A stretch of DNA of 64,000 nucleotides from Bacteroidales bacterium (GCA_017417315.1 JAFPZK010000075.1:2582-66581), one strand, 5' to 3'; positions 60,602-64,000 are shown, counted from the stretch's first letter. Numbers and translations: made by a program. Notes: generated from the sequence alone by a model not told the origin.

Positions 60602-61303
60602 ATGACAAAACCAAAAATCGTATTTTTAACGGGAGCCGGCATTAGTGTTGAAAGCGGATTATCTACTTTTCGCGGCAACGAAGGTATGTGGAATAACAAG
60701 TCTTGGCGTTATTATGCCAGCGTTGAAGGCTTGTATCACGATCCGAAAGGTTTTCTTGACTTTTACAACTGGCGCAGACAAAAACTCTCCGAGATTGAGC
60801 CGAATATGGCGCACCGTTTGATTGCCGAATTGGAGAAAGATTATCAAGTAACGGTCGTCACCCAAAATGTTGACAACCTGCACGAAAAGGCGGGTAGCAC
60901 CAACATTCTTCATCTTCACGGAGAATTGGCGAAAGTATGTTCTTCCAATAACCGACTCGACCCGAATTATATCAAAGATTATCCGCTGACAACTCCAATC
61001 AAATTGAAAGAAGATGCCGGCGACGGCTCTCAAATGCGACCATTTGTCGTCTTGTTCGGAGAATACGTACCATATATGGAAGAGGCTCAGGATTATATCA
61101 GCAGAGCGGACATTTTTGTTGTAGTAGGGACGTCATTGGTGGTATATCCCGCAGCAGACCTTATCCGTTATGCTGACAAAGACATTCCCCGTTACGTCAT
61201 CGACCCGAATAAGATTGAAGTCTGTGATGCTCTCGGCTTCGAACATATTCAAGCATCGGCAAGCGAAGGTATGAAATTGTTGTTAGAGAAAATAAGAATT
61301 TAA
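60602..61303 (+). CDS. cobB: Sir2-family NAD-dependent protein deacylase
   Basis: 233 aa. GAGISVESGLSTFRG, QNVDNLHEKAG, HLHGE. Lacks the 4-Cys zinc ribbon, which I recall as the usual state in Bacteroides-type CobB. Confidence 0.85.
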   Translation: MTKPKIVFLTGAGISVESGLSTFRGNEGMWNNKSWRYYASVEGLYHDPKGFLDFYNWRRQKLSEIEPNMAHRLIAELEKDYQVTVVTQNVDNLHEKAGSTNILHLHGELAKVCSSNNRLDPNYIKDYPLTTPIKLKEDAGDGSQMRPFVVLFGEYVPYMEEAQDYISRADIFVVVGTSLVVYPAADLIRYADKDIPRYVIDPNKIEVCDALGFEHIQASASEGMKLLLEKIRI

Positions 61304-62535
61304 TGTTTCTACAACGCTTGTACCCCTATTTACTGCCGCAAGCACGTCAAAAACCTTGTCGCTCCATCCGGCAATCAGGTAAACGTCTGAATTTAAAATT
61401 CTTAGCGGCGACTGACCATAACCGGCAAGGTCGAAGATGTAGAGTTTGGCAGCGGGGGCGAGTTGGCGGTAGCGGTTCCAAGACTTTTCGAGCGAATTGC
61501 TTCTGCCCGTGGAATCGTACATTTGGCAATCGGTGAAAAACATCACCTTGTCCAAAACTATGTTGTTTTCAATGAGATAATCAATCACTTTGTAGCCGTT
61601 GGTGGAATATCCGACTCTGTTATGGAACTTCTGCATTTCGCCGACGGACATCAGGATATTATCGGAGGGGACGTTGACAGGCTGCCAATTGTCGCCAAAA
61701 ATTCCCGAAACCACACGTCGGCAGCGGGTCTTGAATATCATTGCCAAAAAAAGTCCAATGTCGTAGCAATACACTGTGCTTTTGGGACTTACGGGCTGAT
61801 GCATCGAGCCGCTCACATCGCACGCCAAAAGTACGCTCGTATTTTGGTCGAAACCCTCGATATTGGCGGCGGAATGTTTGACGGCAAGTTCCAACGCCGA
61901 CATCACAAAAGGCGTGTCGGGCGAGTCGATTGCTTTGAGTTCACGGTACGCCGAGAGGAAACGGAATGGCAGTTGCCGCGACTTTGCCACTTGGTCTTCG
62001 TTGCTGAGTATTGAGGCGACAATGTTGACGCTCTCCGCCGAAATCTTCGATGCGAGCATATTTCTGAGGTTGCGCAGCATCGCCATATAGCCGAGACGTC
62101 CGCTATGCACCAACTCCTCCCACTTTTGGCGGAAGGCTGCGGATTTCTGTTCGTCGGATTCAAATTTTTGCTGACCAAGGGCGGAAAGTTCAGTCTCCCA
62201 AGTATATGGAGTTTCAAGTTTGCGGTCGGTTATATTGTTGAAAATCAATTGTTGCGCCTCGTCTTTGGCTTTTGGGTGGACAAGGAACAGGGCGTCGCGG
62301 AGTTTCACTTCGAGGTTGTCGCGGTTGTACTTGGCAAATTGGTATTCGTCGAAACGGTTGAACGCCTTTTGCAATCCGTTCTGAATCGTCCGCTCTTGTC
62401 CTCATAAAAACTGTTGCTCAGCGCGGTTGCAACCACGGCTGTGTAGAGTTCGAGTTCGGGCGACATCACGTAGGCTTTTGCGCCCTCGTGGTTCTTGGTT
62501 TCGTTTTGCTCGCGCAACATAGAATTAAAACTCAT
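61283..62535 (-). pseudogene. rsr: Ro60/Rsr orthologue (TROVE + vWA), frameshifted at about 62401 and apparently shortened
   Basis: The N-terminal 45 aa MSFNSMLREQNETKNHEGAKAYVMSPELELYTAVVATALSNSFYE end where another frame starts (TGA at 62404-62402). That frame reads GQERTIQNGLQKAFNRFDEYQFAKYNRDN...VLLACDVSGSM (vWA MIDAS). Confidence 0.75.
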
Positions 62536-62558
62536 CTTCGTAACTTTTTGATTGTTAA

Positions 62559-62660
62559 TAAAAAAACGGTGCAACAAGCGTGGAGACCTTAACATTCAGG
62601 CGGCCTTGCGACCCCACTCCTGCTCCCAATCGAAGGAATTCTCCACTACGGCAACCGTTT
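62559..62660 (-). ncRNA. Y-RNA-like element 1 (terminal stem with internal loop, T-arm-like hairpin, GNRA hairpin, U-tail)
   Basis: The minus strand carries 5' AAACGGU...GUGGAG and CUCCAC...ACCGUUU stems. Also UUCC-UUCGAUU-GGGA, GGUC-GCAA-GGCC, and a run of eight U at the 3' end. Lies 24 nt upstream of rsr. Confidence 0.55.
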
Positions 62661-62666
62661 ATATTA

Positions 62667-62766
62667 TAAAAAGGCGGTGCAACAGGCGCAAAGAGACTAT
62701 TACCCACGCAAAAAAGCGTGAACAGAATTAGCATTTCCGAAGTAACTCTTCACTACGGCAACCGCC
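62667..62766 (-). ncRNA. Y-RNA-like element 2 (paralogue of element 1)
   Basis: Shares CGGUUGCCGUAGUG (5' side) and UGUUGCACCG (3' side) with element 1. Stems GGCGGU/ACCGCC and AAGAG/CUCUU. Internal CACGC-UUUUUU-GCGUG hairpin. UUUUU tail. Confidence 0.5.
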
Positions 62767-62876
62767 CAAATATTTTTCAAAGAACAGTTCGTTGTTGTTT
62801 GACGTTGCAAAGTAAAAACAAAGGTACGAAATCTTTTTGCGTAACGGAAATTTTTTTTGAGAATTTTTGATTTTTT

Positions 62877-64000
62877 TTATTTCAAGACCTCCCAAAAACC
62901 GCCGTGGTCAGGTCCTACACGACGAATGTACTTATCACGTAATTGCTTTATATTCCGCCAAATAGTATTTTCGGCAACACCAACAATTTGTGCAATCTCT
63001 GTCATCGTAATATATGGATTATCCTTCATTAATAGCAATATCGTAGTTTGAATTTCAGATAATCTTTCTGTATACTTTTCTGTTACATCTCCTACAAAAT
63101 CACCTACATTACCATTAGAATTTACAGGGGCATTATGTCTCACAACACCGTCAAATGCATCATCTCCTACATTTACAGGGGCATTTGCAGGATTATTGTC
63201 TGTTTCTCCTACATTTATAGTGTCATATTGCTCCACAATACCTTCTAAGCAATTATCTCCTACATTTACACCTGCATTTACAGTGTCATTTTCGTTATCT
63301 CCTACATTATCTCCTACATTTACACCTACATTTACAGGGGCATTTACAGGTGCATTTACAGGGGCATCAATCTTATGCAAATTGACCCTCAATATAAAAT
63401 CATTGTCAATTATTTTTGGCTCGGCGGTGCCGTTGGCGTTGAGTTCGCGGCATACACGGTCGATGCCCTCGCCAAACTCCTTCACGTATTCGTGGGCTTT
63501 TAGGAAGGCGGCAATGACGGGATTGCGGGAAAAATGCGTATGACGGATGTTCCACGGACGGACAAGTCCGGGCAAATTGCCGGGGGACTCAAACACAATG
63601 CGGTCGTCAAACATTTTAATCTGAATCTCAGTGCCTTTGATGTTGTAGGCGCGATGGCAACAGGCATTGACCACCATCTCCTGAATGGCAAACGCAGGAT
63701 AGTCGCGGCGTGTAACAAAGATGCCCTTGTTGCCCAAAAACGTATGCTCCGCCACCTGCGTCTCGATAAACTCAACCTCTTCTGAACTTGATTGAGTATT
63801 GTGCCTTCGAATGTTACGTCCTTGATGACGTTCATCTCCGCACCTGTTTTTTCCTCAGTACCAACGTAACGGATAAAGCGCGTGCGAGCCCTCGGGAAAA
63901 ACCTTTGGGGATTCTTTCCGAAAAGCAAAATACAGGCGGTGCTTACCTCGTCGTCGCCTGTCTTGGGATTTTTGCGGACAAAATCGTTGTTTTCTTTGAG
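62877..64000 (-). pseudogene. AlbA_2/RecG-C-like (HATPase_c_4) + C-terminal wHTH putative regulator, 1-nt frameshift near 63780; 5' end off-window
   Basis: LLFGKNPQRFFPRARTRFIRYVG...LNQVQ continues in another frame as EEVEFIETQVAEHTF...AIQEMVVNACCHRAY...NPVIAAFL. C-terminus MTEIAQIVGVAENTIWRNIKQLRDK. Confidence 0.7.
63084..63365. repeat. Degenerate 12-nt tandem repeats encoding (A/V)(P/G)VN / VGDN tetrapeptide repeats in the regulator linker
   Basis: The CCTACATTTACA / GGGGCATTTACA type unit is repeated. The protein reads APVNAPVNAPVNVGVNVGDNVGDN...NAPVNVGD...NAPVNSNGNVGDFVGD. Confidence 0.7.

What the first reader, a model, noticed from the sequence alone, without database searches (positions are those of the whole stretch)
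62559..62766. Two tandem Y-RNA-like structured elements immediately upstream of the Ro60/Rsr gene
Seen directly:
- Two elements of about 100 nt sit head-to-tail (62559-62660 and 62667-62766).
- They share a 14-nt 5' block (CGGUUGCCGUAGUG, minus-strand sense) and a 10-nt 3' block (UGUUGCACCG).
- These blocks pair into a terminal stem interrupted by a conserved asymmetric internal loop, followed by a second helix (GUGGAG/CUCCAC in element 1, AAGAG/CUCUU in element 2).
- On the minus strand each element ends in a U-run (8 and 5 U). No such run follows on the plus strand.
- Element 1 also contains a T-arm-like hairpin UUCC-UUCGAUU-GGGA and a GNRA hairpin GGUC-GCAA-GGCC closed by CAGG/CCUG.
- Element 2 has a CACGC-U6-GCGUG hairpin.

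From established knowledge: bacterial Ro60 orthologues are usually accompanied by one or more adjacent Y RNAs. Their paired 5' and 3' ends form the Ro-binding stem with a bulge, and their second module can mimic tRNA (YrlA type).

Inference: these are a YrlA-like and a second Y RNA. They are not explained by any ORF.
Basis: partly seen in the sequence, partly recalled or inferred. Interest (0 to 1): 0.7.

Follow-up and report, generated by a model that had tools for sequence, protein, structure and literature searches.

The report
Two non-tRNA-like bacterial Y RNAs

Summary
Two head-to-tail elements lie on the minus strand: e1 at 62560-62660 and e2 at 62668-62767. They share exact 14-nt 5' and 10-nt 3' blocks. 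A covariance model trained only on distant loci recovers them at 60 and 73 bits (E about 1e-14 and 1e-17). Nothing else in the 64 kb scores.

In 59 of 64 Bacteroidales rsr loci the same module occurs 1-6 times. All 169 hits are on the rsr strand. Both flanking helices covary strongly. The invariant core is a bulged U, seven stacked positions and a 3-nt opposite bulge, which mirrors the vertebrate Ro60-binding site.

Longer members of these arrays carry T, AS and D arms and match Rfam YrlA at 31-47 bits. The window's two elements give no YrlA hit even at E<=10. The "T-arm" of e1 is not conserved as a T-loop. So both are Y RNAs of a non-tRNA-like class that is absent from Rfam, probably co-transcribed with rsr.

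In this window rsr itself carries a 271-nt frameshifting deletion. This is a new member or sub-class of a known kind. No expression or binding data exist.

The parts
62564..62660 (-). Element e1 (97 nt), the rsr-proximal Y RNA. Stem-1 is 62660-62654 with 62570-62564. The bulged U is 62653. GCCGUAG is 62652-62646, pairing with UUGUUGC at 62577-62571. The 3-nt bulge CGC is 62580-62578. Helix-2 is 62645-62639 with 62587-62581. The UUCCUUC junction motif is 62638-62632. The interior has two hairpins.
   Evidence: Model R1, trained without the window's clade: 60.3 bits, E=3.7e-14. It is 96/97 identical to the intact-rsr locus L082. Orthologues are listed.
62560..62563 (-). The rest of the U7 run that follows e1. 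Three of the seven U form the 3' strand of stem-1.
   Evidence: Sequence. 43 of 59 class-A elements have a U-rich tail.
62672..62767 (-). Element e2 (96 nt), the distal Y RNA. Stem-1 is 62767-62761 with 62678-62672. The bulged U is 62760. GCCGUAG is 62759-62753, pairing with CUGUUGC at 62685-62679. The 3-nt bulge CGC is 62688-62686. Helix-2 is 62752-62746 with 62695-62689. The UUACUUC motif is 62745-62739. The interior is a three-way junction with two hairpins, including CACGC-U6-GCGUG.
   Evidence: R1: 73.1 bits, E=1.1e-17. It is 96/96 identical to L082. The interior hairpins covary among 8 orthologues. The element is absent from some close relatives (L004, L069, L071, L078).
62668..62671 (-). 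The rest of the U5 run that follows e2.
   Evidence: Sequence.
62777..62843 (-). Conserved promoter/leader block. It contains an inverted repeat TACGCA-N7-TTCGTA (62843-62825), a Bacteroidota-type TAnnTTTG box TACCTTTG (62826-62819), and a GTTCTTTGA box (62785-62777).
   Evidence: A TAnnTTTG box lies within 120 nt upstream of the first element in 25 of 54 loci, against 6% of background windows. The boxes cluster at 52-59 nt. The repeat and the GWTCTTTGA box are visibly conserved. The function is inferred.
61283..62535 (-). The rsr (Ro60/TROVE) gene, disrupted. A 271-nt internal deletion (junction 62386|62385) shifts the frame and gives a stop after 76 aa.
   Evidence: ORFs. Pfam TROVE and vWA_Ro60 match only the C-terminal part. 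Homologues are 507 aa. DNA comparison with the intact L082. PDB Ro60 matches.

Best explanation
e1 and e2 are two paralogous genes for small non-coding Y RNAs, the RNA partners of the ring-shaped Ro60/Rsr protein. They belong to a Bacteroidales-wide family.

Each RNA has two modules. The first is formed by the paired 5' and 3' ends. It consists of a covarying 7-bp stem, a single bulged U, seven invariant stacked positions (GCCGUAG opposite YUGUYGC), a 3-nt bulge (CGN) on the 3' strand, and a covarying 7-bp upper helix followed by a conserved (A/U)UYCUUC junction. This module is the likely sequence- and shape-specific docking site for Ro60.

The second module is a variable interior of two hairpins. 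It is the 'effector' or loop domain, and here it is not tRNA-like.

The RNAs are most likely transcribed from one conserved promoter block upstream of the array, as a precursor that continues into rsr. They would then be trimmed to about 95-100 nt. By analogy with characterised Y RNAs, they would gate access to Ro60 and/or tether it to a partner such as an exoribonuclease.

Shown here: family membership, strand, structure, linkage to rsr, and absence of a tRNA-like core.
Inferred: Ro60 binding, co-transcription and processing, and function.

In this particular genome rsr is broken, so the RNAs may be recently orphaned.
For: Independent model:
- R1 was built from 32 elements of distant loci. 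It hits e2 at 73.1 bits and e1 at 60.3 bits on the minus strand. The next hit in the 64 kb scores 11.9 bits at E=0.62.

Linkage and strand:
- There are 169 hits at E<=1e-3 in 555 kb, all on the rsr strand, in 59 of 64 loci.
- A regex-plus-pairing census gives 171 elements on the rsr strand and 2 on the other.
- 14 of 15 metagenome hits to an e1-specific pattern lie in Y-element arrays or rsr loci.

Structure:
- 92.8% of cells are paired against 72.2+-0.5% in shuffles (0 of 500 shuffles reach it). The covariation score is 0.613 against 0.223. Slid registers give 35-56%.
- All 14 pairs of the two outer helices show double-sided changes, while the central segment is invariant. An independent fixed-register count agrees.

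Kinship with known Y RNAs:
- The Rfam YrlA consensus (cggCgaAUG, then a 7-bp helix, CUA, the interior, cUuGucGcc) is collinear with the module.
- The vertebrate Ro60 site is defined as a 7-bp helix with a single bulged C and a 3-nt bulge on the opposite strand (PMC4726728). The module has the same layout.
- Sister elements in the same arrays carry T, AS and D arms and score as YrlA.

The adjacent protein is a true Ro60 orthologue.

Conservation:
- The RNA region 62536-62876 is 338/341 identical to L082. The rsr 3' part is 94.7% identical and the upstream ORF 71%.

Transcription unit:
- There is a conserved promoter-like block upstream of the arrays. No TAnnTTTG box occurs in the median 33-nt gap before the rsr ATG in any of 58 loci.
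Against: There is no expression, end-mapping or Ro60-binding data for any member of this family.

Single-sequence folding is only marginally better than shuffles, and the plus strand folds nearly as well.

The 5' motif is GCCGUAG, not the published GNCGAAN0-1G, so Ro60 recognition is an extrapolation.

The sequences in the covariation alignment are related paralogues and orthologues, and alignment A3 was fitted to the model. The shuffle statistics therefore overstate independence.

The promoter assignment is ambiguous. TAnnTTTG may be the -7 box, or its TTTG may be the -33 element for the downstream GWTCTTTGA box. Neither was tested.

In this window rsr is truncated, so the RNAs may be non-functional here.
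Confidence: 0.85

Rival explanations
1. e1 is a YrlA-type tRNA mimic. Its interior would fold into a reduced T-arm/acceptor-like/D-loop domain that tRNA-binding factors recognise.
For: The window sequence has UUCC-UUCGAUU-GGGA, which is compatible with a T-loop (U..A at loop positions 1 and 5). A YrlA-type element in L079 has the same helix-2 and junction sequences as e1 (GUGGAGAAUUCCUUCG ... UAAGGUCUC), which suggests common descent.
Against: Rfam YrlA gives no hit at E<=10 on the region or at E<=0.05 on the window. True tRNA-like relatives score 31-47 bits. ARAGORN finds nothing. The loop A is U in most orthologues, and loop length varies between 5 and 7. The closing pair is reversed relative to the tRNA G53:C61 pair. 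There is no D arm and no GG for the D/T kissing interaction in a conserved context.
Confidence: 0.05
2. The elements are cis-acting parts of the rsr 5' leader rather than independent RNAs. They would be Ro60-binding sites for autoregulation, and/or attenuators whose terminal stem plus U-run stops transcription before rsr.
For: They sit 24-30 nt upstream of the rsr ATG, with no promoter-like box in between in any of 58 loci. Class-A proximal elements usually end in a U-run (43 of 59). This would allow partial termination. It is compatible with, and not exclusive of, the Y RNA reading.
Against: In L042 four elements lie downstream of rsr and none upstream, and L050 also has one downstream. Copy number varies from 1 to 6, with tRNA genes interspersed. 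Sister elements are bona fide YrlA-type RNAs. The tool finds no canonical terminator hairpin. Inner array members mostly lack U-runs.
Confidence: 0.08
3. A chance or selfish repeat: a local tandem duplication or repetitive extragenic element with fortuitous self-complementarity and no RNA function.
For: The two copies are adjacent and share exact end blocks. e2 is present in some close relatives and absent in others.
Against: The elements are confined to rsr loci and to the rsr strand in 59 of 64 loci. There are none elsewhere in the 64-kb window. Compensatory changes occur in both helices. They are more conserved than the flanking coding DNA.
Confidence: 0.02

Closest known systems
YrlA (Rfam RF02553; Chen et al. 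2014, PMC4201824)
   Same: It is encoded next to rsr on the same strand. It has the same order of parts: a terminal stem carrying a GNCGAA-like 5' motif (here GCCGUAG), a 7-bp second helix, a YUAY-like junction (UUAC/UUCC), an interior module, and a 3' UGUCGCC-like strand. YrlA-type and window-type elements share arrays and end modules in related genomes.
   Different: The interior has no T arm, AS stem or D arm. There is no Rfam hit at any threshold tried. The 5' motif has U where YrlA has A. Both strands and both bulges of the Ro-site-like helix are conserved here. Chen 2014 reports that only the 5' strand is recognisable in the Salmonella and Mycobacterium RNAs.
Second, non-tRNA-like bacterial Y RNAs: S. 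Typhimurium and M. smegmatis YrlB, D. radiodurans Yrn2 (Chen 2013/2014)
   Same: They are additional Ro60-associated RNAs encoded beside rsr and YrlA. They share the Ro-binding motif but lack a full tRNA-like domain. In M. smegmatis they lie upstream of rsr and are processed from one precursor.
   Different: Sequence homology could not be tested, because none of those sequences is available in the tools. YrlB was found only in Salmonella serovars by BLAST. In the window's clade no YrlA partner is found near rsr at all.
Metazoan Y RNAs (lower-stem Ro60 site; PMC4726728)
   Same: About 100 nt long, with paired ends. There is a conserved helix with a single bulged pyrimidine on the 5' strand and a 3-nt bulge on the opposite strand. 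The loop domain is variable and the 3' end has a U-run (one search compared).
   Different: There is no sequence homology beyond the short motif. These are bacterial and probably operon-encoded rather than Pol III genes. The bulged base is U, not C. No Rfam Y_RNA hit was obtained.

Membership tests
Y RNA (Ro60-associated ncRNA, broad sense) | Encoded adjacent to a Ro60/Rsr orthologue on the same strand (the bacterial criterion of Chen 2014: within 4 kb) | tested here: met
   e1 ends 24-28 nt upstream of the rsr ATG at 62535, on the same strand. The protein is a TROVE plus vWA_Ro60 protein with PDB Ro60 matches. All 169 family hits lie on the rsr strand.
Y RNA (Ro60-associated ncRNA, broad sense) | 5' and 3' ends pair into a stem that carries a conserved, bulged Ro60-binding helix | tested here: met
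   Stem-1 and helix-2 covary. The invariant core has a 1-nt 5' bulge and a 3-nt 3' bulge. The layout matches the published vertebrate site description.
Y RNA (Ro60-associated ncRNA, broad sense) | Variable loop/effector module between conserved stems; size about 100 +/- 20 nt | tested here: met
   The elements are 96-97 nt. The interiors differ between e1, e2 and the other classes while the ends are shared.
Y RNA (Ro60-associated ncRNA, broad sense) | Physically bound and stabilised by Ro60; exists as a discrete stable transcript | not testable with these tools
   No expression or binding data are accessible.
YrlA (RF02553) | Scores against the curated covariance model (gathering score 69 bits) | tested here: not met
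   No hit at E<=10 on 62400-62950, none at gathering score, and none at E<=0.05 on the window. As controls, phage YrlAs score 42-44 bits and Bacteroidales tRNA-like elements 31-47 bits.
YrlA (RF02553) | tRNA-like domain: conserved T arm, AS stem and D arm in permuted order | tested here: not met
   Neither element has a GGUUCRANYC or UAGCUCAG motif. The T-like loop of e1 is not conserved. ARAGORN finds nothing.
YrlA (RF02553) | GNCGAAN0-1G motif near the 5' end | tested here: inconclusive
   The sequence is GCCGUAG, which matches 6 of 7 positions (U for A). It is invariant across the family and collinear with the Rfam consensus.
YrlB / Yrn2-type secondary Y RNAs | Sequence or structural homology to the experimentally defined YrlB or Yrn2 | not testable with these tools
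tRNA / tmRNA | Cloverleaf detected by ARAGORN or Rfam tRNA | tested here: not met
Intrinsic terminator | Short GC-rich hairpin immediately followed by a U-run | tested here: not met
   No site was found in 62300-63000. The U-runs follow the long-range terminal stem, not a compact hairpin.

The most novel reading that the evidence does not exclude
Bacteroidales Ro60 operons encode a modular 'adaptor set'. They carry arrays of up to six Y RNAs, often with an embedded tRNA(CAU) gene. All the RNAs share one metazoan-like Ro60-docking helix but carry at least five different interior modules: two tRNA-like YrlA types and three non-tRNA-like types. Each module could direct the single Ro60 to a different partner or substrate. 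The window's clade would be a lineage that has dispensed with the tRNA mimic altogether. [quoted passage not shown]
Probability: 0.3. Interest if true: 0.7.

Novelty: new member of a known kind. Interest (0 to 1): 0.5.

Why it matters
Bacterial Y RNAs have been found mainly through the tRNA-like core of YrlA. Chen et al. 2014 noted Ro60-bearing bacteria with no YrlA candidate and predicted variant Y RNAs. These elements define such a variant for abundant gut and rumen Bacteroidales.

Their conserved two-stranded, doubly bulged helix resembles the vertebrate Ro60 site more closely than the Salmonella and Mycobacterium RNAs do. This gives a clean, testable RNA-protein recognition module.

The covariance model built here could annotate a class that Rfam misses. 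Ro60 orthologues of gut commensals are discussed in the literature in connection with lupus autoimmunity (reviews listed), so knowing their RNA partners has some wider relevance.

For this window specifically the result is an ordinary, correct annotation (Y RNA genes). The one twist is that the partner gene is broken.

Tried and rejected
- Rfam at gathering threshold and at permissive E-values on the region and the whole window gave nothing relevant. I first suspected that Rfam lacked YrlA. Controls showed the family exists and works on phage and Bacteroidales YrlA-type elements.
- Single-sequence folding of both strands was uninformative for choosing the strand.
- The sigma-70 promoter and terminator scan found nothing, which is expected for Bacteroidota.
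- MAFFT/RNAalifold on the e2 orthologues failed to align the interior hairpins. I replaced it with constrained folding of each sequence.
The data do not decide between them, so I did not commit to an e1 interior structure.
- Literature searches found no description of Bacteroidales Y RNAs. The supplementary species tables of Chen 2014 are not held, so I cannot exclude that some Bacteroidetes YrlAs were listed there.
- I considered that helix-2 (7 bp) plus the D-like and anticodon-like hairpins of Prevotellaceae class-A elements might form an unpermuted tRNA mimic. I did not pursue this, and ARAGORN does not call them.

Full report
**1. The observation**

On the minus strand, directly upstream of a TROVE/Ro60 gene (ATG at 62535), lie two head-to-tail elements. 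By model boundaries e1 is 62564-62660 and e2 is 62672-62767. A U7 run follows e1 and a U5 run follows e2.

Both elements begin with CGGUUGCCGUAGUG and end with UGUUGCACCG. The 14-mer occurs exactly twice in the 64 kb. At up to 2 mismatches there are 4 matches against 0.2 expected.

Single-sequence folding is only modestly better than shuffles (z = -1.5 and -2.5). The plus strand folds about as well. Significance therefore has to come from comparison with other genomes.

**2. Context**

The adjacent gene is a Ro60 orthologue. It matches Pfam TROVE and vWA_Ro60. Its intact relative matches solved Ro60/TROVE structures over the full length at E=1e-25, and X. laevis Ro60 (1yvp) at E=1.5e-4.

The gene is broken in this window. 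Relatives are 507 aa. Against the 96%-identical intact locus L082, the window lacks 271 nt between GGACGA and TTCAGAAC (junction 62386|62385). This shifts the frame and gives a stop after 76 aa. The next gene upstream is also frameshifted near 63770. I cannot tell whether these lesions are real decay or assembly error.

**3. Comparative evidence**

I fetched 64 Bacteroidales rsr loci, all from rumen or gut MAGs. Nearly all carry 1-6 copies of a shared bipartite module upstream of rsr:
- 5' side: [stem-1]-U-GCCGUAG-[helix-2]-(A/U)UYCUUC
- 3' side: [helix-2']-CGN-YUGUYGC-[stem-1']

A regex-plus-pairing census gave 171 elements on the rsr strand and 2 on the opposite strand. The window holds exactly two.

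I then built a covariance model (R1) from 32 proximal elements of distant loci, deliberately leaving out the window's clade. In the window it finds e2 at 73.1 bits (E=1.1e-17) and e1 at 60.3 bits (E=3.7e-14), both on the minus strand. The next hit scores 11.9 bits at E=0.62. Over 555 kb of loci, both strands, it gives 169 hits at E<=1e-3. Every hit is on the rsr strand, and 59 of 64 loci have at least one. In L042 four elements lie just downstream of rsr instead. This argues against a purely cis-acting leader role.

An e1-specific 22-nt pattern scanned over metagenome contigs gave 15 hits. Fourteen are Y-type elements in such arrays or rsr loci.

**4. Structure**

On the model-derived alignment (148 distinct sequences), 92.8% of cells are paired against 72.2+-0.5% in shuffles, and 0 of 500 shuffles reach the observed value. 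The covariation score is 0.613 against 0.223. Slid registers give 35-56%.

All seven pairs of stem-1 and all seven pairs of helix-2 show changes on both sides, with up to six pair types per position. The central segment is invariant: G:C, C:G, (C.Y), G.U, U.G, A:U, G:C/U.

An independent fixed-register count separated the pairs my search pattern had required from those it had not. The outer 4 bp of stem-1 are 86% paired (shuffles 60%). Helix-2 is 87% paired (shuffles 64%).

The invariant G.U and U.G pairs would be A.C mismatches on the other strand, which fixes the strand. A caveat applies: the sequences are related, and alignment A3 was fitted to the model. The shuffle figures therefore overstate independence. 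The slid-register control and the many pair types are the stronger evidence.

**5. What the module resembles**

[quoted passage not shown] Both the bulges and the sequence are required for binding (PMC4726728). The module here has a single bulged U on the 5' strand, then seven stacked invariant positions, then a 3-nt bulge (CGN) on the 3' strand. Covarying stems lie on both sides.

The Rfam YrlA consensus is collinear with this module. It runs cggCgaAUG (= GNCGAANG), then a 7-bp helix, CUA (the YUAY of Chen 2014), the interior, and cUuGucGcc.

That this module binds Ro60 is an inference from these parallels.

**6. YrlA or not**

Rfam holds YrlA as RF02553, with a gathering score of 69 bits. 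As controls:
- Phage Ro60 loci give YrlA hits of 42-44 bits.
- Long (124-166 nt) members of the Bacteroidales arrays, which carry obvious GGUUCRANYC T arms, an AS stem and UAGCUCAG D arms, score 31-47 bits, with E down to 1.6e-7.

The window's region gives no YrlA hit at E<=10. The whole window gives none at E<=0.05. Eight loci of the window's own clade also give none. ARAGORN finds no tRNA-like gene in the window.

The 'T-arm' of e1, UUCC-UUCGAUU-GGGA, overlaps the family-wide UYCUUCG junction motif. In orthologues the loop is UUCGUUU, UUCGU or UUCGUC, and in L025 the pairing register shifts. The T-loop signature is therefore not conserved. The GNRA tip (GCAA or GAAA) is kept only in the nearest relatives.

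The interior of e2 folds in all eight orthologues to the same three-way junction with two hairpins. Both hairpins covary: GAA/UUC with AGUU/AACU and AGAU/AUCU, and CACGC/GCGUG with GCGCC/GGCGC. The second hairpin is deleted in L003.

Both window elements therefore belong to one non-tRNA-like class, which I call class A. In Prevotellaceae arrays this class holds the rsr-proximal position, downstream of a second short class, a tRNA gene, and one to three YrlA-type elements.

Some close relatives have only e1 (L004, L069, L071, L078), so e2 is a variable paralogue. An L079 YrlA-type element shares the helix-2 and junction sequences of e1. This points to module exchange between paralogues.

**7. 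Transcription (inferred)**

A conserved block precedes the first element of most arrays. It consists of an inverted repeat TACGCA-N7-TGCGTA, a TAnnTTTG box, and about 20 nt later a GWTCTTTGA box. The TAnnTTTG box is the Bacteroides -7 consensus, which I cite from my own knowledge.
- TAnnTTTG occurs within 120 nt upstream in 25 of 54 loci, against 6% of background windows. The boxes cluster at 52-59 nt, and the window's is at 59.
- No locus out of 58 has such a box in the median 33-nt gap between the last element and the rsr ATG.

So rsr is probably co-transcribed behind the RNAs, as reported for M. smegmatis, and the RNAs are processed out. Which box is the -7 element is unresolved. The tool's sigma-70 and terminator definitions find nothing.

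U-rich tails follow 43 of 59 class-A elements but few inner array members. This is compatible with partial termination before rsr.

**8. Conservation**

Against L082, e2 is 96/96 identical and e1 is 96/97. The whole RNA region 62536-62876 is 338/341 identical. The rsr 3' part is 94.7% identical and the upstream ORF 71%.

**9. Comparison and novelty**

The closest known entities are YrlA (same ends, different interior), the secondary Y RNAs YrlB and Yrn2 (same idea, homology untestable here), and metazoan Y RNAs (same stem architecture).

Chen 2014 explicitly expected variant Y RNAs in Ro60-bearing bacteria that lack a YrlA candidate. I found no paper describing Bacteroidales Y RNAs or such arrays. 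The supplementary tables of Chen 2014 are not held.

For the finding as given, this is a correct and useful annotation: new members of a known kind, in a sub-class absent from Rfam. The broader picture of arrays with five module classes and an embedded tRNA(CAU) is the more novel part. It remains functionally untested.

**10. Verdict**

- 'Y RNAs next to rsr' is supported with confidence of about 0.85.
- 'YrlA-like tRNA mimic' is not supported.
- Interest is 0.5.

Noticed in passing
window 61283-62535 (-), junction 62386|62385: The rsr/Ro60 gene has a 271-nt internal deletion relative to the intact 507-aa gene of L082. The result is a frameshift and a stop after 76 aa. The Y RNA genes beside it are intact.
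   Followed up: yes
window ~63770 (-), gene 62877-64000+: The upstream HATPase_c_4 + wHTH regulator-like gene also changes frame (...ILNQVQK, then VEFIETQVAEH...). Two adjacent broken genes suggest either genome decay or assembly/indel errors. The same ORF has a low-complexity PVNA/VGVN/VGDN repeat region at about 63100-63400 and is only 71% identical to L082.
   Followed up: partly
window 62825-62843 (-); same position in most of L001-L064: A conserved inverted repeat TACGCA-N7-TGCGTA lies just upstream of the promoter-like TAnnTTTG box of rsr/Y-RNA operons. In the window the right half is degenerate (TTCGTA). It looks like an operator for an unknown regulator.
   Followed up: partly
L008 3698-3772, L016 3667-3741, L023 3695-3769, L053 3470-3544, L062 3675-3749 and at least 8 more loci: A canonical tRNA(CAU) gene is embedded at a fixed position inside the Y RNA arrays, about 230-350 nt upstream of rsr. 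Other tRNAs (Ser, Lys, Thr) are embedded in L033, L040 and L047. The window's clade has none. RNase P/Z processing could release the neighbouring Y RNAs.
   Followed up: partly
L008 3267-3353, L009 91-177, L015 3677-3762, L048 3338-3424, L062 3092-3178: ARAGORN calls the 5' part of one long Y class (GUGAGUGCCGUAGGAGAGGAUUGCUUCGCAGUGGUUAGA...) as tRNA-Leu(UAG). This suggests that class contains an unpermuted class-II-tRNA-like fold as well.
   Followed up: no
Prevotellaceae proximal elements, e.g. L011 1241-1341, L012 2688-2787, L020 3872-3968, L056 3853-3952: Class-A interiors there have an AGCU-N7-AGC hairpin followed by a hairpin with a 5-bp stem and a 7-nt loop, consensus YU-NNN-AA. The loop resembles an anticodon loop, and the 'anticodon' varies. 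The stems covary.
   Followed up: no
L079 11733-11868: A YrlA-type element (Rfam 39 bits) has the same helix-2 and junction sequences as window e1 but a different terminal stem. This implies recombination or module shuffling among Y RNA paralogues.
   Followed up: partly
L042 5537-6013; L050 5528-5625: Four Y elements (L042) and one (L050) lie immediately downstream of rsr rather than upstream, as in Salmonella.
   Followed up: partly
L031 and L034, between the Y element and rsr: Tandem TTCCTAGAAC-type decamer repeats are inserted between the single Y element and the rsr start.
   Followed up: no
phage collection: TROVE/Ro60 homologues are encoded by 20 Bacteroides crAss-like phage records (e.g. 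PhiCrAssBcn2) and many other phages. I did not check whether they carry Y RNAs of the class described here.
   Followed up: no
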